Source: an uncultured archaeon
GTDB lineage: Archaea > Asgardarchaeota > Heimdallarchaeia > Heimdallarchaeales > Kariarchaeaceae
DNA: 15,254 nucleotides
Assembly (NCBI GenBank): GCA_964645535.1
Contig: CAZYCQ010000018.1
Coordinates: 18,249 to 33,502, forward strand
Direction: 5' to 3'
Both the position numbers and the translations under genes were made by a program. Positions 9,222 to 15,254 of this stretch are shown one piece after another (the stretch's first letter is position 1; the number at the start of each line of letters is the position of its first letter). The notes beneath the pieces were generated by a model. The model was not told the DNA's origin, ran no database searches, and was given only the letters and a program-made list of their open reading frames with translations.

Positions 9222-10019
9222 TTACTTAATCCGTATTTTCTTCCGAAACGAAAAATCAATTGGATTATCTTCCAGATTTATTTCTTCAAGATTTGGACAT
9301 AGCTTGATTAGATTTGATGGTACTTCTGTCAATTCATTTCCGGAAAGATCAAGCTTTTTCAAACTATATAATTCTTTTTTGGAACCAATTTTCAAGGTCA
9401 CCAAATTATTCTCTGAAAGATTCAATTCAACAAGGGAAAGGGGCAATTGCATCAAATCAAAAGAGAAGAGTCGATTCCCTCGTAGGTTGAGCCTTGCCAC
9501 TTCCATTCCTTGGAAAAATCCATCCGGTATACTCGAAATCTCGTTATTGGACAGATCTAGAATATCCAGATCCAGTGTTTTTACAAGGTTCGATCGAATT
9601 TCATTCAGTGCATTCCTATGCAAATCAAGTATGCGAAGATTTCGAAGATGATTAAATGTGCCCTCTTCAATTTGTCTGATCCTGTTTTCCCCGAGAAAAA
9701 GCTTTTCTAGCTCTCTGTTATTCCAGAAAAGTTGTTTTGGAATACATTCCAATCGGTTACGGGAAAGATTGACTTCCTTCAGATTTGGCATTTTTGCAAA
9801 AAAGTGGTCAGGAACTGTGTTAAGGTCATTTAGCTGGAGATCAATTTTTTCAAGATAAGGTAGCCGAAGTTTTAGTGAAGAGGGAATCTCAACCAGTCTC
9901 ATCTCAGAAAGATAAAGTTCCACAACTCTAATTTCCCCGTCTACCTGTCGTGTGACGATCTGGTTCCGTGAAATCCCCAAGTGCCTGATCAAACTCTGTA
10001 TCTGTTCCGAATCATCCAT
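9222..10019 (-). CDS. Leucine-rich repeat (LRR) protein, about 9-10 repeats, no other recognisable domain
   Basis: There are consecutive units of about 24 aa matching LxxLxLxxNxLxxIP. Examples are LEKIDLQLNDLNTVP, LKEVNLSRNRLECIP, LEKLFLGENRIRQI, LRILDLHRNALNEI, LDILDLSNNEISSIP, LVELNLSENNLVTL and LKKLDLSGNELTEVP. No signal peptide is evident. Confidence 0.85.
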   Translation of the reverse strand: MDDSEQIQSLIRHLGISRNQIVTRQVDGEIRVVELYLSEMRLVEIPSSLKLRLPYLEKIDLQLNDLNTVPDHFFAKMPNLKEVNLSRNRLECIPKQLFWNNRELEKLFLGENRIRQIEEGTFNHLRNLRILDLHRNALNEIRSNLVKTLDLDILDLSNNEISSIPDGFFQGMEVARLNLRGNRLFSFDLMQLPLSLVELNLSENNLVTLKIGSKKELYSLKKLDLSGNELTEVPSNLIKLCPNLEEINLEDNPIDFSFRKKIRIK

Positions 10020-10916: not shown

Positions 10917-13871
10917 ATGCTTAAAAACATAAAAGCTCTGTTCGGATTTGAAAATATGTCAATTTCCCTTCCCCATGCTATCCCTCTTGATGAATTGTTG
11001 TCTCAGCTCCATACTGACAGGCGATCTGGTCTAAACCTCCAAAAAGTAAGGGAACACTACCGGAAATATGGGGAAAACGAAATAATCACAAAATCTCCCA
11101 GCATTTGGAAGATATATCTAGCCCCGCTTTTTGATGTTCTTATCACCATTTACCTGATCATGACTGGATTTTTGGTCATTCTGGCGATCTGGTATCCGCC
11201 AATTCTTGGCCAAGTTCTTTTTTGGCTTTCAATTATCGCCTTCAACATGGCAATCGCTATTTTTCAACAATTTCGTGCTCAGAAGAAACTAGATGCCTTA
11301 CGTAATCTTTCACCACCCAAGGCAAAAGTCATCAGGGAAGGAGTTGTGTCTGAAATTGATGCCAAATTTCTTGTTCCGGGTGATCTTGTTATCCTTGAAT
11401 TAGGCGACCGGGTTTCTGCGGATATGAGAATTCTTTCATCCGTCAACCTCACGGTTAATGAAGCATCGCTTACTGGAGAAAGCAAGGCAGTAAACAAGGT
11501 TGAAGATGGCTCTATCCGACTGCCTGAAGACACCCCAATTGCCGAAAGAAAGAATATGCTCTATATGGGAACCTTCATACAAACTGGAAATGCTAGAGCG
11601 ATTGTCTGTAACACCGGCAATGACACTGAACTTGGATCCATTGCCCAAGAAATTTCTGAAATGCAATCATTGGAAATTCCCTTGCGAAGCAGGGTTAATG
11701 CCATTGCAAAAAAACTTGTGGCTGTCATGCTTGTCCTTTTTGTAGCCTCAGTTATCTTTAAATTCTATATCCGAATTACCCACCATCTTCCCATGACTCC
11801 AGAAGCCATCTCCCAAGATCTTGTTCAGAGTATTATCACAGCTATGTCAGTGATGCCAATCAACATCCCACTCCTGACAACAATAATCCTCATCACGGGT
11901 GTTGTACGTATGGCTCAGGAAAATGTAATCGTCAAGGAACTGTCCGTAATCGAAACCTTGGGGCGGACATCTGTTCTGTGTTCTGACAAGACTGGAACCA
12001 TGACCACTTCAAAAATGGCTGTTTCACGGATCTGGGATACGGAAAACTATTATGCCGTCAAATTTGATGAAATTGGAACCGTTTCAATCTATCAAATCGA
12101 TGAGACCATGAAACGGGATGCAACAGAGCTTGAACAGTTCCTCTTTACTCAAATGAACCAAGTACCGAGAGATTCTGCACTTGAACTTCTCCTCACTGCA
12201 ACAACTCTGAATAATGACGCCAATCTGATCATTGAGGATGTCTACGGTGAAAAGGGCTTGAATCTCTGGGAAGCCGTGGGAAATGCAACAGATGCCGCAT
12301 TTCTTATCCTGTCCTACAGATCCGCTTTAGATCAGGATTATATCCGAAAGAGGTATGTCAAACTTCGTGATTATCCTTTCAACTCAACCGTCAAAAGGAT
12401 GACCAAACTTTTCCATGATACCCTCGAAAATGACTACATGGTATTTTCTAAAGGAGCTGCTGAAGTTCTTCTTCCCCGATGTTCCCAAATCGGCAATGAA
12501 GGACGTCGAAAGGTTAGGGAATTGGGAAATGAAGAAAAAGAGGCTATTCAGAAGGATATTGATAGCTTTGCCAACCTCGGCTACCGTGTGGTTGTAGTTG
12601 CCTATAAAGCAATTGATTCCATCCCTGAATTTGCAAATCCTGATGAAGAACGCAATTGGATGGAAAGTGATTTGACCTTTATAGGATTTGCATGCCTTTT
12701 GGATCCTCCTCGTCCTGGTGTTAAAGAAGCTGTCCGAAAGCTTGACGAAGCTGGGATTTTTCCCATCATGATTACCGGTGATTCTCCAAAAACAGCTTCG
12801 ACAATTGCAGCACAGGTCGGCATCCTTGACCCTGATGAAATAGTCATTGAGGGAAAACAAATTCCGAAACTGTCCGAGGAGGACTTTTTCAAAGTTTCTG
12901 TTTTTGCTAGAGTTTCCCCGCAGGACAAGAAGATCATTGTGGATAAATATCAAAGAAGAGGTGATGTGGTTACTATGACGGGCGATGGCGTCAACGATTC
13001 CCTAGCCATCACCCGTGCAGATGCAGGTGTTGCCATGGGAATCACAGGAACTGAAGTAACCAAAGAATCTGCCGACATTATCTTGGCTGATGATTCGTAT
13101 GTAAGCCTTGTCAAGGGTGTTGAGCAGGGCAGATCTCTCTTTGAAAAAATCCGGATGGTGATCTTCTTTTTCATTGCAGTAAATATTGCTGAAGGTATCG
13201 TTTACTTCTCCACTTCTTTTCTTCCTGGTTTTGTGTTGCTCAATAATGCCCAAAGAGCGTTTATTTTTTCAATAATGCATGGTATCCCTCCAGCAGTCCT
13301 GATCTTTGATTCCATGGATAAGGACATCATGAAGCTCAAACCTCGGCAACACGATGCGGTGATCAACAAACGGCTGTTCATGGCAATGCTCTCTTTCATT
13401 CTGCCCTTCTCAGCAATATTGATCGGTATCTATTTTTTCAGTTACAACGAATATATCCCCCTAACTCAAGTCAATTTGCAAGGCATCACTCCAATATTGC
13501 AAACTGATGGGTCTTCTCTTCATCCAACCTCATATTCGCAAGCTAAGGCACGAACCATGTTGATCGCTTCAATCTACTTGACAGAATCCCTTTTCATCTT
13601 CTCTATTCGGAGAATCAACCAATCATTCCTTCAATCTGTAAAGGATGCTTCTATCTTTGTTTGGTTCATGGTGGTCTTTGGCCCTCTCATCCTGCTTATT
13701 ACTATGTATTTCACTCCCATTCAAATTATTGCTGCTGAGCATGGTTTCAGAGTGGATTTATTGTGGCTTGGCCCTATGGACTGGTTAATTTGCTTATCGC
13801 TTGCTGTTATCCCAATCATTGTGCTTGAATCTTTCAAATCACTTATGCGTAAACAAGAAGTTCAATTCTGA
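10917..13871 (+). CDS. P-type cation-transporting ATPase, P2 (SERCA/PMCA-like) architecture with atypical transmembrane ion-site residues
   Basis: The N-terminal cation-ATPase motif is present (GLNLQKVREHYRKYGENEI). The core motifs are TGES, the phosphorylation site CSDKTGTMTT (Asp codon 11985-11987), KGA, DPPR, MITGD and TGDGVNDS. About 10 TM segments are predicted. An alternative start is ATG 10950. Confidence 0.9.
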   Translation: MLKNIKALFGFENMSISLPHAIPLDELLSQLHTDRRSGLNLQKVREHYRKYGENEIITKSPSIWKIYLAPLFDVLITIYLIMTGFLVILAIWYPPILGQVLFWLSIIAFNMAIAIFQQFRAQKKLDALRNLSPPKAKVIREGVVSEIDAKFLVPGDLVILELGDRVSADMRILSSVNLTVNEASLTGESKAVNKVEDGSIRLPEDTPIAERKNMLYMGTFIQTGNARAIVCNTGNDTELGSIAQEISEMQSLEIPLRSRVNAIAKKLVAVMLVLFVASVIFKFYIRITHHLPMTPEAISQDLVQSIITAMSVMPINIPLLTTIILITGVVRMAQENVIVKELSVIETLGRTSVLCSDKTGTMTTSKMAVSRIWDTENYYAVKFDEIGTVSIYQIDETMKRDATELEQFLFTQMNQVPRDSALELLLTATTLNNDANLIIEDVYGEKGLNLWEAVGNATDAAFLILSYRSALDQDYIRKRYVKLRDYPFNSTVKRMTKLFHDTLENDYMVFSKGAAEVLLPRCSQIGNEGRRKVRELGNEEKEAIQKDIDSFANLGYRVVVVAYKAIDSIPEFANPDEERNWMESDLTFIGFACLLDPPRPGVKEAVRKLDEAGIFPIMITGDSPKTASTIAAQVGILDPDEIVIEGKQIPKLSEEDFFKVSVFARVSPQDKKIIVDKYQRRGDVVTMTGDGVNDSLAITRADAGVAMGITGTEVTKESADIILADDSYVSLVKGVEQGRSLFEKIRMVIFFFIAVNIAEGIVYFSTSFLPGFVLLNNAQRAFIFSIMHGIPPAVLIFDSMDKDIMKLKPRQHDAVINKRLFMAMLSFILPFSAILIGIYFFSYNEYIPLTQVNLQGITPILQTDGSSLHPTSYSQAKARTMLIASIYLTESLFIFSIRRINQSFLQSVKDASIFVWFMVVFGPLILLITMYFTPIQIIAAEHGFRVDLLWLGPMDWLICLSLAVIPIIVLESFKSLMRKQEVQF

Positions 13872-14383
13872 CTCTGTTCCCTTGTTTCCTTTTCCCGTAG
13901 CATTGTTGATGATATTTTATTGCCTCTTTCGTCAGTGACCCATTGGATGGTGTAAATGAATAACGGCTTCAATCCGTTTTCCTTTCTCATCTGATTGATT
14001 TTTTCTGCTGCAGGATATGTCTCTTCTGATACCACGATCAGGTCTGCCTTTTCGTCATAAGGGGCAGGGCCCCAAGGATCCTTCAATTCATCAACTATGG
14101 CTCTCGCCTTAAATTGGGATAGGTATTCTTCAACTTTTGCTTTTCTGACTCGATACGGCTGTATCTTATCTCCATGGCGTTTCTTGGCAAATAGACGCCT
14201 TCCAAGTTCTTCCCCAACAACGCCTACAAAAACCTCTCTTGCCAAATGAGCTGCTGTTTTGAGAAGAAGGCGGTGTGCGGCATGTAACCTATCGAATGTC
14301 CCTCCCATCACGCATTTGCTGAATGGTTTCTCCGAATTGTCTACCTCTTGCTTCAAAAATTTTTCATAAGAATCCTGCAACAT
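13862..14383 (-). CDS. coaD: Phosphopantetheine adenylyltransferase (archaeal-type PPAT, CoA biosynthesis)
   Basis: The GGTFDRLHAAH motif is typical of the archaeal PPAT/cytidylyltransferase fold, and DPWGPA...IVVSEET...INQMRKENGLKPL is also present. The 3' end overlaps the ATPase 3' end by 10 bp. Confidence 0.75.
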   Translation of the reverse strand: MLQDSYEKFLKQEVDNSEKPFSKCVMGGTFDRLHAAHRLLLKTAAHLAREVFVGVVGEELGRRLFAKKRHGDKIQPYRVRKAKVEEYLSQFKARAIVDELKDPWGPAPYDEKADLIVVSEETYPAAEKINQMRKENGLKPLFIYTIQWVTDERGNKISSTMLREKETREQSQN

Positions 14384-14406
14384 CTAGCAGTTCAATCTCG
14401 TTTATT

Positions 14407-14874
14407 TTAATCCGTCGTTATAAGCCCTTTGAGAATGGCCAGACCAATTGAAAGCGTTCCGATAGACCCTATATCTCCAACAGGGAGTTGCACCGATCTT
14501 CCCATGTCCAAGTCTTTTCTGGATAGGCCTGGATCGCTTCCTCCGAATACAATTGCATATTTTCTCCCCTTGATTTGTTCTGCTAGATTTTTATCCAATT
14601 TCTCTTTTCCATAGGGTGGTGGTGCAACAAGAATCACCTCTTCAGGAGAGAAAAGATCAACTACATCCTGTAAAGAATATAGAACCAGAAAATTTGCACG
14701 TTCCTTAAAGGCCAATTTTTGAGCCGCAGGCACCCCCTTCTGTGCCGCAGACCCTTGAGCCTGTGAAATAACCATAGTTTTGTATCCAAGTCCCGAGGCA
14801 ATTCGAACAAATTCCGTACAACGACTTGAAGAGCTTATGTTATGCATAACCACGATCGGCCATATGTCTTCCAT
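14407..14874 (-). CDS. SPOUT-like (alpha/beta-knot) protein of unknown function, archaeal DUF-type
   Basis: The C-terminal IVFGGSDPGLSRKDLDMG..VQLPVGDIGSIGTLSIGLAIL resembles SpoU/TrmH motifs 2-3 (fG.E..GLs ... IP ... SLN...A..I). The gene lies 23 nt upstream of PPAT and is co-directional with it. Confidence 0.4.
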   Translation of the reverse strand: MEDIWPIVVMHNISSSSRCTEFVRIASGLGYKTMVISQAQGSAAQKGVPAAQKLAFKERANFLVLYSLQDVVDLFSPEEVILVAPPPYGKEKLDKNLAEQIKGRKYAIVFGGSDPGLSRKDLDMGRSVQLPVGDIGSIGTLSIGLAILKGLITTD

Positions 14875-14968
14875 ATCATTCTCTTAATAGGATCATTTAT
14901 GAGAGATAGGGTTGGTCACATTCATAAAACATCCCTCAGTTACTTTTTCTTGTTACCTAATTTAATTC

Positions 14969-14975
14969 TTATATA
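14969..14975 (+). promoter_or_regulatory. Candidate TATA box driving the 5S locus
   Basis: TTATATA sits in AT-rich DNA. A start about 25 nt downstream would fall near 15000, just before the leader hairpin AUCAAC-UACG-GUUGAU (15003-15018). Confidence 0.35.
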
Positions 14976-15026
14976 CTATGGCAATTTGATTTGATATGTA
15001 AGATCAACTACGGTTGATATCCGGAG

Positions 15027-15046
15027 GGTTCTCCCACCAGAGAGTT
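15027..15046 (+). other. 5' strand of the predicted bulge-helix-bulge (BHB) processing motif (leader / start of the 5S 3' half)
   Basis: CUCCCA 15031-15036 pairs with UGGGAG 15167-15172. CCAG 15037-15040 pairs with CUGG 15160-15163. AGA 15041-15043 forms a bulge. GUU 15044-15046 pairs with AAC 15157-15159. GGU 15027-15029 pairs with ACC 15175-15177. Confidence 0.55.
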
Positions 15047-15091
15047 AAGCCCGGCATCGGACGACCCATGTACTGATTTCCGCGAGGGATC
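15037..15091 (+). repeat. Direct repeat copy 1 (55 bp, perfect)
   Basis: ccagagagttaagcccggcatcggacgacccatgtactgatttccgcgagggatc is identical to 15200-15254, at an offset of 163 nt. Confidence 0.95.
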
Positions 15092-15165
15092 GGGAAAGGC
15101 GTCACGCTGTGATACGATCACGGTCATAGAGCCGGTGTGCACCCAGAAACATTCCGAACCTGGAT
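15043..15165 (+). rRNA. rrf: 5S rRNA encoded in circularly permuted order: 3' half (15043-15113), ACG triloop (15114-15116), 5' half (15117-15165)
   Basis: 15117-15165 (AUCACGGUCAUAGAGCCGGUGUGCACCCAGAAACAUUCCGAACCUGGA) matches the archaeal 5S 5' half. 15043-15113 (AGUUAAGCCCGGCAUC...GUACUG...CGCGAGGGAUCGGGAA...GCUGUGAU) matches the 3' half. Helix I is AUCACGGU (15117-15124) paired with GCUGUGAU (15106-15113). Helix II is GCCGG (15131-15135) paired with CCGGC (15051-15055). Confidence 0.8.
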
Positions 15166-15177
15166 TTGGGAGTGACC
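15157..15177 (+). other. 3' strand of the predicted BHB processing motif (end of the 5S 5' half / trailer)
   Basis: In order: AAC, then CUGG, then the AUU bulge (15164-15166), then UGGGAG, then UG, then ACC. See the partner strand at 15027-15046 for the pairings. Each 3-nt bulge lies 3' of the 4-bp helix on its own strand, as in canonical hBHBh' substrates. Confidence 0.55.
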
Positions 15178-15205
15178 TGTCCCCGCAAAGGTGCTTTCTC
15201 CAGAG
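15166..15205 (+). other. 40-nt spacer between the 5S 5' half and the second 3'-half copy (trailer of unit 1, or a BHB intron)
   Basis: Its ends can form the same BHB with the second copy. GGGAG 15168-15172 pairs with CUUUC 15194-15198 (two G-U pairs). CUGG 15160-15163 pairs with CCAG 15200-15203. The bulges are AUU 15164-15166 and AGA 15204-15206. AAC 15157-15159 pairs with GUU 15207-15209. Confidence 0.5.
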
Positions 15206-15254
15206 AGTTAAGCCCGGCATCGGACGACCCATGTACTGATTTCCGCGAGGGATC
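15200..15254 (+). repeat. Direct repeat copy 2 (55 bp, perfect, runs to the window end)
   Basis: This is identical to 15037-15091. It contains the BHB strand and the first 49 nt of a second 5S 3' half (15206-15254). Confidence 0.95.

What the first reader, a model, noticed from the sequence alone, without database searches (positions are those of the whole stretch)
15027..15177. Leader and trailer fold into a canonical BHB motif with cleavage sites at the 5S permutation junction
The leader and trailer pair as follows. An outer helix CUCCCA/UGGGAG (6 bp) is followed by a 4-bp central helix CCAG/CUGG. Two 3-nt bulges lie on opposite strands (AGA 15041-15043 and AUU 15164-15166), each 3' of the central helix. 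An inner helix GUU/AAC follows. This is the substrate geometry of the archaeal splicing endonuclease (EndA). EndA also excises pre-16S and pre-23S rRNA, which are then circularised by RtcB. Canonical cleavage, as I recall it, is after the second bulge nucleotide. That would release an RNA starting at A15043 and ending at U15165. Ligation would then give ...GAACCUGGAU-AGUUAAGCC..., within 1 nt of the consensus 5S junction GAACCCGGA-AGUUAAGCC. Cut sites coinciding with the permutation point by chance seems unlikely. One caveat: the central-helix CUGG is also the 3' strand of mature 5S helix III, where it pairs with CCAG 15143-15146. The precursor and mature folds are therefore mutually exclusive.
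Basis: partly seen in the sequence, partly recalled or inferred. Interest (0 to 1): 0.88.

Follow-up and report, generated by a model that had tools for sequence, protein, structure and literature searches.

The report
Circularly permuted 5S rRNA gene
This archaeon, a relative of the lineage that gave rise to eukaryotes, encodes its 5S ribosomal RNA with the two halves in swapped order. The flanks fold into the cut-and-rejoin signal of the tRNA-splicing enzymes, which probably explains why no 5S gene could be found in complete genomes of this group.

Summary
Window 15031-15172 holds a canonical bulge-helix-bulge (BHB) motif. It has a 6-bp outer helix, a 4-bp central helix, two 3-nt bulges each 3' of the central helix, and a 3-bp inner helix. 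It encloses a 123-nt circularly permuted 5S rRNA whose helix I is closed by an ACG triloop.

The window ends inside a second tandem unit with its own leader. The complete two-unit locus is seen in a close relative (L064). I found about ten distinct sequence types of the same architecture (13 aligned units). They come from Kariarchaeaceae-type Heimdall-group genomes and both closed Heimdallarchaeum genomes.

Across these units the BHB pairs are 95.5% paired and 10 of 13 show compensatory change. The 4-nt leader strand co-varies with both strands of mature helix III. The bulge nucleotides predicted to be kept are conserved, and those predicted to be discarded vary.

Rfam finds no 5S in any of these loci. 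The authors of the closed genomes reported that 5S could not be predicted.

Best explanation: EndA excises each unit and RtcB joins its ends, restoring 5S, probably as a covalently closed circle. Cleavage, ligation and the final topology are inferred, not shown. The mechanism is known for permuted tRNA and SRP RNA genes. I found no published report of it for 5S rRNA.

The parts
14969..14976 (+). Putative archaeal TATA box (TTATATAC) of the pre-5S transcript. The transcription start is inferred near 15000.
   Evidence: An A/T-rich box lies in the block TTACCTAATTTAATTCTTAAATA, which is conserved upstream of the leader in L061, L064 and L069. L072 has a similar block. Its function is inferred from position only.
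15003..15018 (+). Leader hairpin AUCAAC-UACG-GUUGAU. It lies upstream of the BHB and would be discarded with the leader.
   Evidence: Predicted in every fold. It is kept with compensatory changes in L072 (GAACU-UACG-AGUUC) and L073 (UCAUC-CACG-GAUGA). Function unknown.
15031..15036 (+). Unit 1 BHB outer helix, 5' strand (CUCCCA). Pairs with 15167-15172.
   Evidence: All six outer-helix pairs show changes on both sides across relatives. One example is CUCCUA/UAGGAG in L069.
15037..15040 (+). Unit 1 BHB central 4-bp helix, 5' strand (CCAG). Pairs with CUGG 15160-15163.
   Evidence: 100% of cells are paired and all 4 pairs co-vary across 13 units. The strand is identical to each unit's own helix III 5' strand in 10 of 13 units.
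15041..15043 (+). Bulge 1 (AGA). Predicted EndA cut between 15042 and 15043, so A15043 becomes the 5' end of the excised RNA.
   Evidence: The third bulge nucleotide is A in all 13 units, while the first two vary (AG, AA, AU). The cut position follows from the established BHB rule and is not tested.
15043..15165 (+). Permuted 5S rRNA unit 1 (123 nt). 3' part 15043-15113, helix I loop ACG 15114-15116, 5' part 15117-15165.
   Evidence: The Rfam 5S model aligns to the halves only below threshold. 34 pairs in helices I-V are 96.7% paired and 20 show compensatory change. The custom model R1 scores 154 bits over 15031-15172. The rejoined sequence folds into the three-arm 5S shape.
15106..15124 (+). 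Helix I closed into a hairpin: GCUGUGAU-ACG-AUCACGGU. The normal 5S termini are covalently joined here.
   Evidence: helix columns 76-94, 4 pairs with compensatory change. Paralogous unit 2 has GCUGUAUU-ACG-AUUACGGU, a G-C to A-U change.
15143..15146 (+). 5' strand (CCAG) of mature 5S helix III. It competes with the leader strand 15037-15040 for CUGG 15160-15163.
   Evidence: Helix III is 100% paired with all 4 pairs co-varying.
15157..15163 (+). Inner helix 3' strand AAC (15157-15159) and central helix 3' strand CUGG (15160-15163).
15164..15166 (+). Bulge 2 (AUU). Predicted cut between 15165 and 15166, so U15165 becomes the 3' end of the excised RNA.
   Evidence: The first two nucleotides are AU in all nine Kariarchaeaceae-type units and AA in the other four. 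The third varies (U or A).
15167..15172 (+). Unit 1 BHB outer helix, 3' strand (UGGGAG).
15166..15205 (+). 40-nt spacer, made of trailer 1 plus leader 2. It would be released when both units are excised.
   Evidence: The homologous spacer is seen complete in L064, L067 and L069.
15194..15206 (+). Unit 2 leader: outer strand CUUUCU 15194-15199, central strand CCAG 15200-15203, bulge AGA 15204-15206.
   Evidence: Direct repeat of period 163. The partner trailer AGAAAG lies beyond the window. It is present in L064 and L069, where CUUUCU/AGAAAG pair perfectly.
15206..15254 (+). Permuted 5S unit 2, cut off by the end of the window. The source contig ends 27 nt later.
   Evidence: R1 hit at 15194-15254, 42 bits, truncated at the 3' end. 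The 27 further bases are in L001.

Best explanation
**Architecture (shown).** The locus is a dicistronic pair of circularly permuted 5S rRNA genes in a Heimdall-group (Kariarchaeaceae-type) Asgard archaeon. Each unit is encoded in the order 3' part, 3-nt loop closing helix I, then 5' part. The break point lies between helix III and the GUUAAGC segment.

**Precursor fold (shown by comparison).** A leader segment copies the 5' strand of helix III (CCAG). It captures the helix III 3' strand (CUGG) to make the 4-bp central helix. A 6-bp leader-trailer helix and the GUU/AAC helix flank it. Two 3-nt bulges are left, giving a canonical BHB.

**Processing (inferred).**
- The archaeal splicing endonuclease EndA cuts after the second nucleotide of each bulge, after 15042 and after 15165.
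- RtcB joins A15043 to U15165, giving ...GAACCUGGAU-AGUUAAGCC....
- This restores a continuous 5S. CUGG is then free to form mature helix III.

**Final form (inferred).** Helix I is closed by a tiny stable loop, so the mature 5S is most likely a 123-nt covalently closed circle.
For: **Permuted order and 5S identity.**
- The Rfam 5S model aligns only piecewise: 12.8 bits, or 27.2 bits across units with a 44-nt insert.
- All five helices are kept in permuted order. 96.7% of cells are paired, 20 of 34 pairs show compensatory change, and 0 of 500 shuffles reach this.

**Each 3' part pairs with the 5' part that follows it.**
- Helix I and helix II differ between the two paralogous units by compensatory changes.
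- Collapsed assemblies that mix the units (L016) show an A-C mismatch in helix II.

**The BHB is real.**
- The register-exact chance is 8e-5.
- Across 13 units the BHB is 95.5% paired, 10 of 13 pairs change on both sides, and the covariation score is 0.587 against 0.185 for shuffles (0 of 500). Slid controls give at most 0.19.
- The central helix takes seven forms: CCAG/CUGG, CUGG/CCAG, CAGG/CCUG, CGGA/UCCG, CGGG/CCCG, CUGG/CCGG and UCAG/CUGA. Each tracks that unit's own helix III.
- Kept bulge nucleotides are conserved and discarded ones vary.

**Not an artefact.**
- The same architecture occurs in 0.67-Mb and 1.13-Mb contigs and in two closed genomes.
- Logan contigs break exactly k-1 = 30 nt after the point where the two leaders converge.

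**No conventional 5S is known in this group.**
- Rfam finds none in any of these loci.
- Wu et al. 2022 state that 5S could not be predicted in the closed Heimdallarchaeum genomes (PMC8813620).

**Precedent and enzyme.**
- The permuted SRP RNA of Thermoproteus is circularised via a leader-trailer BHB (as described in PMC7758197).
- Asgard archaea encode (alpha-beta)2 EndA with the broad-specificity L1 loop (PMC5829648).

**Helix I loops.** They are triloops, UNCG tetraloops (ACG, ACA, UUCG, UGCG) or other short loops of 5-6 nt. These offer no obvious processing site.
Against: - There are no RNA data. Cleavage, ligation and circularity are all inferred.
- Nearest-neighbour energies do not favour the BHB conformer: -51.5 kcal/mol against an unconstrained minimum of -55.7, and about equal to the conformer with helix III formed.
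- The predicted junction leaves 3 nt (AUA) where the Rfam consensus has 2 (AA).
- Bulge 1 is not 3 nt in every lineage. It is 2 nt in L028 and 4 nt in Heimdallarchaeum.
- In the L027 clade the leader carries 31 extra nucleotides, and it is ambiguous which central helix is used.
- I could not scan whole genomes for a conventional 5S or for endA and rtcB.
Confidence: 0.8

Rival explanations
1. The gene and BHB are the same, but the product is not a stable circle. EndA only trims the ends, and the 5S works as a linear permuted RNA. Its termini lie in the internal loop between helices II and III, with no ligation or only transient ligation.
For: A linear permuted molecule can still form all five helices, because helix III is a local hairpin and helix II is long-range. 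Brown-algal mitochondrial 5S rRNAs are permuted in the final linear product (PMC4267664).
Against: In the known archaeal cases, RNA excised at a BHB is joined: rRNA precursors and the permuted SRP RNA, and tRNA exons and introns (general knowledge). The ends are held next to each other by GUU/AAC and helix II. The 3 nt spanning the junction (AU|A) are conserved as one unit.
Confidence: 0.1
2. The circle is only an intermediate. It is re-opened in the helix I loop to give a conventional linear 5S with normal termini, as permuted tRNAs are opened by RNase P and tRNase Z.
For: Permuted tRNA genes mature this way (Soma et al. 2007, cited in PMC4267664). Circular pre-16S and pre-23S rRNAs are re-linearised in several archaea.
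Against: The loop closing helix I is only 3-6 nt and is not conserved in sequence. It is often a UNCG tetraloop or a triloop, so it carries no spare sequence or shared motif for a nuclease. The permuted SRP RNA stays circular, and 23S rRNA is reported to stay circular or permuted in some archaea.
Confidence: 0.1
3. The locus is a conventional-order 5S gene with a 40-nt BHB intron. The 5' part of unit 1, a spacer removed as an intron, and the 3' part of unit 2 would make up the gene. The first 3' part and last 5' part would be leftover duplicates.
For: The Rfam 5S model aligns in normal order across 15116-15278 with a 44-nt insert (27.2 bits). Trailer 1 and leader 2 could form an intron-type BHB using the same bulges: CUGG/CCAG, and UGGGAG/CUUUCU with 5 of 6 pairs.
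Against: - Several genomes have a single unit with no downstream 3' part: L072, L075, L076, L079, L081 and L028.
- Helix I and helix II compensatory changes pair each 3' part with the 5' part that follows it, not the one before it.
- The helix I strands are only 3 nt apart.
- The leader 1/trailer 1 and leader 2/trailer 2 outer helices each co-vary.
Confidence: 0.02
4. The locus is an assembly artefact or a decaying 5S pseudogene.
For: The locus sits at a contig end. Two public assemblies (L016 and L066) are demonstrably collapsed or chimeric here.
Against: The same architecture appears in independent assemblies from NCBI, ENA, JGI and Logan, including two closed genomes and contigs of up to about a megabase. 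The 5S part is about 96% identical between species whose flanking genes are about 73% identical. Compensatory change is pervasive.
Confidence: 0.01

Closest known systems
Circularly permuted SRP RNA gene of Thermoproteus (Plagens et al. 2015, as summarised in PMC7758197)
   Same: The gene is rearranged at the DNA level so that transcription starts inside the RNA. A short leader and trailer form a BHB. The tRNA-splicing machinery is proposed to cut and join, giving a covalently closed functional RNA.
   Different: The RNA is different (5S rRNA, a ribosome component) and so is the phylum (Asgard, not Thermoproteales). The units can be tandem and dicistronic. The central BHB helix is built by a leader mimic of a mature helix strand, so precursor and mature folds exclude each other. 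It is spread across at least two Heimdall-group families rather than two species. There are no RNA data here.
Permuted tRNA genes (Cyanidioschyzon merolae, Soma et al. 2007; Thermofilum pendens, Chan et al. 2011)
   Same: The 3' half lies upstream of the 5' half. A BHB forms at the junction of leader and trailer, and a circular RNA is formed by the splicing machinery.
   Different: The tRNA circle is an intermediate that is opened at the acceptor-stem ends by RNase P and tRNase Z. Here the former termini are joined by a 3-6 nt loop with no apparent processing signal.
BHB-dependent excision and circularisation of archaeal pre-16S and pre-23S rRNA. Includes the permuted 23S of Pyrococcus and Thermococcus and the circular 23S reported in ribosomes (PMC7758197, PMC12918454, bioRxiv 10.64898/2026.03.23.713588).
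   Same: The leader-trailer processing stem carries a BHB. EndA and RtcB produce a circular rRNA species. In some lineages the rRNA stays circular or permuted in the ribosome.
   Different: Those genes are collinear in the DNA, and any permutation arises at the RNA level. As of 2026 the literature states that 5S is not processed this way (PMC12918454).
Permuted mitochondrial 5S rRNA of brown algae and other stramenopiles (Valach et al. 2014, PMC4267664)
   Same: It is a 5S rRNA in which helix I is replaced by a closed hairpin and the termini lie elsewhere.
   Different: Its termini lie at the alpha/gamma domain junction and the final product is linear and permuted. There is no BHB, no EndA or RtcB, and it is organellar. 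Here the break lies between helix III and helix II, and the flanks are built to be rejoined.
Conventional archaeal 5S rRNA (Rfam RF00001)
   Same: Same helices I-V, loop A CAUAG, loop C CAUUCCGAAC, GUUAAGC, and a loop E-type GUACUG...GGGAA.
   Different: The gene order is permuted, so the Rfam model scores 12.8-27.2 bits against a gathering score of 38. Standard annotation therefore misses it.

Membership tests
5S rRNA (RF00001) | Three-way junction with helices I, II-III and IV-V supported by base pairing | tested here: met
   34 pairs in 5 helices are 96.7% paired, 20 show compensatory change, and 0 of 500 shuffles reach this. The rejoined sequence folds to the 5S shape.
5S rRNA (RF00001) | Conserved loop motifs (loop A CAUAG, loop C CCGAAC, GUUAAGC, loop E GUACUG/GGGAA) | tested here: met
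   These are invariant columns in alignments A2 and A3. They also align to the Rfam consensus.
5S rRNA (RF00001) | Score at or above Rfam's gathering threshold (38 bits) on the genomic sequence | tested here: not met
   No hit at gathering level. Below threshold the scores are 12.8 and 27.2 bits. This is expected for a permuted gene. The rejoined sequence could not be given to the Rfam tool.
5S rRNA (RF00001) | It is the organism's ribosomal 5S (incorporated in the 50S subunit, no other 5S gene) | not testable with these tools
   Indirect evidence only. The authors of the closed Heimdallarchaeum genomes could not predict any 5S (PMC8813620). Both genomes carry this permuted gene.
Canonical BHB substrate of archaeal splicing endonuclease | 4-bp central helix | tested here: met
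   CCAG/CUGG in the window. 100% of cells are paired and all 4 pairs co-vary in 13 units.
Canonical BHB substrate of archaeal splicing endonuclease | Two 3-nt bulges on opposite strands, each 3' of the central helix | tested here: met
   AGA 15041-15043 and AUU 15164-15166. The definition is taken from PMC5829648. In relatives bulge 1 is 2 nt (L028) or 4 nt (Heimdallarchaeum), which are relaxed forms.
Canonical BHB substrate of archaeal splicing endonuclease | Flanking helices on both sides (hBHBh') | tested here: met
   The outer helix is 6 bp, 89% paired across units, with all 6 pairs co-varying. The inner helix GUU/AAC is invariant.
Canonical BHB substrate of archaeal splicing endonuclease | Cleaved by EndA at the predicted phosphodiesters | not testable with these tools
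   Indirect evidence only. The conservation pattern of kept versus discarded bulge nucleotides fits a cut after nucleotide 2.
Permuted non-coding RNA genes restored by BHB processing (permuted tRNA, Thermoproteus SRP RNA) | 3' part encoded upstream of 5' part, with the former termini joined by a short linker | tested here: met
Permuted non-coding RNA genes restored by BHB processing (permuted tRNA, Thermoproteus SRP RNA) | Leader and trailer form the BHB exactly at the permutation junction | tested here: met
Permuted non-coding RNA genes restored by BHB processing (permuted tRNA, Thermoproteus SRP RNA) | Circular RNA with the predicted junction detectable in cells | not testable with these tools
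Permuted non-coding RNA genes restored by BHB processing (permuted tRNA, Thermoproteus SRP RNA) | Genome encodes EndA and RtcB | not tested
   Whole genomes could not be scanned. The literature reports (alpha-beta)2 EndA with the L1 loop in Asgard archaea, including a Heimdallarchaeote (PMC5829648).

The most novel reading that the evidence does not exclude
The 5S rRNA in the ribosomes of Heimdall-group Asgard archaea (Kariarchaeaceae and Heimdallarchaeaceae, close archaeal relatives of eukaryotes) is a covalently closed circle. It is made from a genomically permuted gene by the tRNA-splicing machinery. The permutation is ancestral to this group and is its only 5S gene. It would be the first 5S rRNA in any cellular genome found to depend on EndA and RtcB. 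It would also be a built-in folding switch, because the leader mimics a helix III strand.
Probability: 0.55. Interest if true: 0.9.

Novelty: new variant of a known kind. Interest (0 to 1): 0.86.

Why it matters
- **It likely solves a stated annotation gap.** 5S genes 'could not be predicted' in the first closed Heimdallarchaeum genomes (PMC8813620). Rfam-based pipelines will score such MAGs as lacking 5S, which affects MIMAG quality calls.
- **It extends BHB-dependent processing to 5S.** EndA/RtcB circularisation was documented for 16S and 23S rRNA, tRNA and SRP RNA. A 2026 paper describes it as applying to 16S and 23S but not 5S.
- **It predicts a circular RNA as a stoichiometric ribosome component.** The lineage is central to models of eukaryote origin. 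The prediction can be tested directly with existing enrichment cultures.
- **It gives a clean natural example of three-way covariation.** One strand has alternative precursor and mature partners.
- **It provides a search tool.** Covariance model R1 finds these genes at 120-154 bits.

Tried and rejected
- **Rfam at gathering threshold.** Nothing was found for 5S in the window or in nine related loci.
- **Single-sequence folding.** It does not recover the BHB, and the z-score is -0.19. Constrained folds show the BHB conformer is accessible but not favoured. Thermodynamics was therefore not used as evidence.
- **Spurious-ORF search.** I searched the protein database with the spurious ORF that overlaps the 5S, hoping to find related loci. 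Only the source contig came back.
- **Exact protein look-up to name the L027 and L028 organisms.** It gave no names. A chimeric HypE + L028 query named only the L027 clade, as Heimdallarchaeaceae-like. L028 remains 'uncultured archaeon'.
- **First MAFFT alignment with long flanks (A1).** It misaligned the leaders. I replaced it with 6-nt flanks. An N pads the 2-nt bulge of L028, and one bulge nucleotide was removed from the 4-nt bulges so that columns stay in register. Bulge columns are not counted as pairs.
- **Most pattern hits in the two collection scans.** They are conventional 5S genes followed by a chance CCGAAC, tandem conventional 5S genes, or scaffold duplicates.
- **Rival readings.** The intron reading, the artefact reading and the pseudogene reading were considered and rejected (see rivals).
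- **Loci without the gene.** L074 and L078 (other Heimdall-group genomes) have no permuted 5S within 3-5 kb of the DUF2122 gene. This says nothing about the rest of those genomes.
Full report
**1. What is in the window**

Reading 14700-15254 and extracting the segments by script confirms every coordinate of the finding.

- The outer helix is CUCCCA 15031-15036 with UGGGAG 15167-15172.
- The central helix is CCAG 15037-15040 with CUGG 15160-15163.
- The bulges are AGA 15041-15043 and AUU 15164-15166. Each lies 3' of the central helix on its own strand.
- The inner helix is GUU 15044-15046 with AAC 15157-15159.

The orientation matches the canonical archaeal BHB, two 3-nt bulges separated by a 4-bp helix (definition in PMC5829648). 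From general knowledge, a canonical tRNA intron at position 37/38 has nucleotide 38 as the single bulge nucleotide left on the 3' exon. That corresponds to a cut after bulge nucleotide 2.

The enclosed 123 nt (15043-15165) is a 5S rRNA in permuted order.

- GUUAAGCC...GUACUG...GGGAA...GCUGUGAU is the normal 3' part.
- The ACG loop 15114-15116 follows.
- AUCACGGUCAUAGAGCCGG...CAUUCCGAACCUGG is the normal 5' part.

Rfam finds nothing at gathering level. Below threshold, the 5S model aligns to the 3' part (12.8 bits). It also aligns in normal order across 15116-15278 with a 44-nt insert (27.2 bits).

The rejoined sequence folds into the three-arm 5S shape.

With the 5S core fixed and the flanks shuffled, the exact BHB register arises 82 times in 10^6 trials.

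**2. The window stops inside a second unit**

A direct repeat of period 163 starts a second unit. Its leader is CUUUCU 15194-15199, CCAG 15200-15203 and AGA 15204-15206, followed by 5S sequence to the window end.

The window is the reverse complement of bases 28-15281 of RFHV01000650.1 (GCA_003696825.1). The contig ends 27 nt further on.

Two Logan assemblies of other runs end exactly 30 nt after the CCAG where the two leaders converge. A k=31 graph would break there if both left contexts exist in the reads.

**3. Related loci**

- A collection scan for 5S motifs in permuted order found three true cases: L016, L027 and L028. The metagenome scan added L039, L047 and L052.
- I then followed homologues of the neighbouring DUF2122 gene to their contigs. 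This gave the complete locus in a close relative, L064 (GCA_027054415.1).
- L064 has two tandem permuted units. Unit 1 has outer helix CUCCCA/UGGGAG and unit 2 has CUUUCU/AGAAAG. A hairpin, a T-run and a GTPase gene follow.
- L069 and L070 show unit 1 with CUCCUA/UAGGAG. This is a compensatory change relative to the window.
- L016 and L066 are collapsed assemblies that join leader 1 to trailer 2. In L016 this creates an A-C mismatch in helix II.
- More distant genomes carry one unit (L072, L075, L076) or two (L073).
- HypE of the L027 clade is closest to Heimdallarchaeaceae.
- Both closed genomes, Ca. Heimdallarchaeum aukensis CP084166.1 and Ca. H. endolithica CP084167.1, carry a permuted 5S upstream of hypE.
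- A covariance model built from 13 units (R1) recovers all of them at 120-154 bits. It also recovers the truncated unit 2 of the window.

**4. Tests of structure**

On 9 units (alignment A2), the five 5S helices are 96.7% paired. 20 of 34 pairs show compensatory change. No shuffle of 500 reaches the observed values, and slid controls collapse.

On 13 units (alignment A3), the 13 BHB pairs are 95.5% paired.

- 10 pairs change on both sides.
- The covariation score is 0.587 against 0.185 for shuffles (0 of 500) and at most 0.19 for slid partners.
- All six outer pairs and all four central pairs co-vary.

The central helix takes the forms CCAG/CUGG, CUGG/CCAG, CAGG/CCUG, CGGA/UCCG, CGGG/CCCG, CUGG/CCGG and UCAG/CUGA.

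- In 10 of 13 units the leader strand equals that unit's own helix III 5' strand. This includes the two units of L073, which differ from each other.

Helix I and helix II differ between the paralogous units by compensatory changes. Each 3' part therefore pairs with the 5' part that follows it. This excludes the reading of a 5S gene with an intron, as do the single-unit loci.

The bulge nucleotides kept under 'cut after nucleotide 2' are conserved. The third of bulge 1 is always A. The first two of bulge 2 are AU in Kariarchaeaceae-type units and AA in the others. The discarded nucleotides vary.

**5. Mechanism**

*Shown:* the permuted gene order, the conserved and co-varying BHB at the permutation point, the tandem organisation, and the absence of a detectable conventional 5S in these loci.

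*Inferred from established knowledge of EndA and RtcB, and from the Thermoproteus SRP RNA precedent (PMC7758197):*

- One transcript starts about 25 nt downstream of a conserved A/T box (14969-14976). In the relatives it ends at the T-run after trailer 2.
- Each unit is cut after 15042 and after 15165, or the equivalent positions.
- The 5'-OH and 2',3'-cyclic phosphate ends are joined, giving GAACCUGGAU-AGUUAAGCC.
- CUGG then switches to its mature partner, CCAG 15143-15146.

The loops closing helix I are triloops, UNCG tetraloops or short A/U loops with no shared motif. I therefore think the mature RNA stays a circle. This step is the least certain.

Energies do not discriminate between the conformers.

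**6. Comparison with what is known**

- **Closest analogue.** The permuted SRP RNA of Thermoproteus comes first, then permuted tRNA genes, then BHB-dependent circularisation of 16S and 23S rRNA.
- **Brown-algal mitochondrial 5S.** It is permuted differently and stays linear (PMC4267664).
- **Literature searches.** Eight of my nine full-text searches were aimed at finding an archaeal or nuclear permuted 5S. None found one.
- **Current view of 5S processing.** A 2026 paper states that circularisation applies to 16S and 23S 'but not 5S rRNAs' (PMC12918454).

**7. Verdict**

The biochemical steps remain untested.

This is a new variant of a known kind. A known mechanism is applied to a new and central RNA, it is widespread in a key lineage, and it explains a published annotation gap.

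**8. Open points**

- The exact 5' cut is uncertain where bulge 1 is 2 nt or 4 nt.
- The 31-nt leader insert in the L027 clade carries two candidate central strands.
- It is unknown whether any conventional 5S co-exists.
- The identity of the L028 organism is unknown.
- The role of the conserved leader hairpin is unknown.

Noticed in passing
L016 3077-3218 and L066 686-827: These two public assemblies collapse the tandem pair into one chimeric unit (leader 1 joined to trailer 2). The outer helix no longer pairs (CUCCUA against AGAAAG). In L016, helix II acquires an A-C mismatch. Scaffolds of the same species (L069, L070) show two units with an N-gap.
   Followed up: yes
window 15003-15018: The leader hairpin AUCAAC-UACG-GUUGAU (a UNCG-type loop) lies between the presumed transcription start and the BHB. 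It is kept with compensatory changes in L072 and L073. Function unknown.
   Followed up: partly
window 13862-14874 (- strand); also L064, L069, L072, L073, L075, L076: A CTP_transf_like gene and a DUF2122 gene lie next to the permuted 5S across Kariarchaeaceae-type genomes that are only 55-92% identical in that protein. The DUF2122 gene has a weak SpoU-methylase hit and is named 'RecB-family nuclease' by NCBI. This could be mere synteny or a functional link to RNA modification.
   Followed up: partly
L027 5140-5206; L047, L052, L039: This Heimdallarchaeaceae-like clade has 31 extra leader nucleotides. They form an 8-bp hairpin (CGUCUGGA-GGAAU-UCCAGAUG) followed by GUUCGG, which is complementary to the loop C sequence CCGAAC. 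There are two alternative central strands: a distal UCAG next to a 10-bp outer helix, and a proximal UCGG. The choice decides whether the mature 5S carries a 31-nt expansion.
   Followed up: partly
whole window / L001: NCBI labels the source MAG (GCA_003696825.1, locus tags D6732_) 'Methanobacteriota archaeon'. Its DUF2122 protein and its syntenic relatives are Heimdallarchaeota or Kariarchaeaceae, and the window encodes an LRR protein typical of Asgard genomes (9222-10019, - strand). The label looks wrong.
   Followed up: partly
L036, L038, L042-L046, L048-L051, L054, L055, L057, L058 (human-gut metagenome contigs): A conventional Bacteroidales-type 5S gene is followed, after its terminator hairpin, by a short duplicated 5S fragment (CATTCCGAACAGAGAAGTTAAG). 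It recurs in many gut contigs. It is unrelated to the finding and was the main source of false positives in the scan.
   Followed up: no
L027 4947-5028 (- strand); L047 1651-1732; L052 375-456: An 82-nt tRNA gene lies about 180 nt from the permuted 5S, on the opposite strand, in the L027 clade.
   Followed up: no
L072 3185-3239: A marginal Rfam C/D-box hit (SNORD36, 31.4 bits, E = 0.47) lies inside the DUF2122 coding region. It is probably chance.
   Followed up: no
L019 2099-2245; L020 1626-1778: Conventional 5S genes are duplicated across runs of N (Altiarchaeales) or across a single N (Haloterrigena). These look like scaffolding artefacts that mimic tight tandem 5S genes.
   Followed up: no
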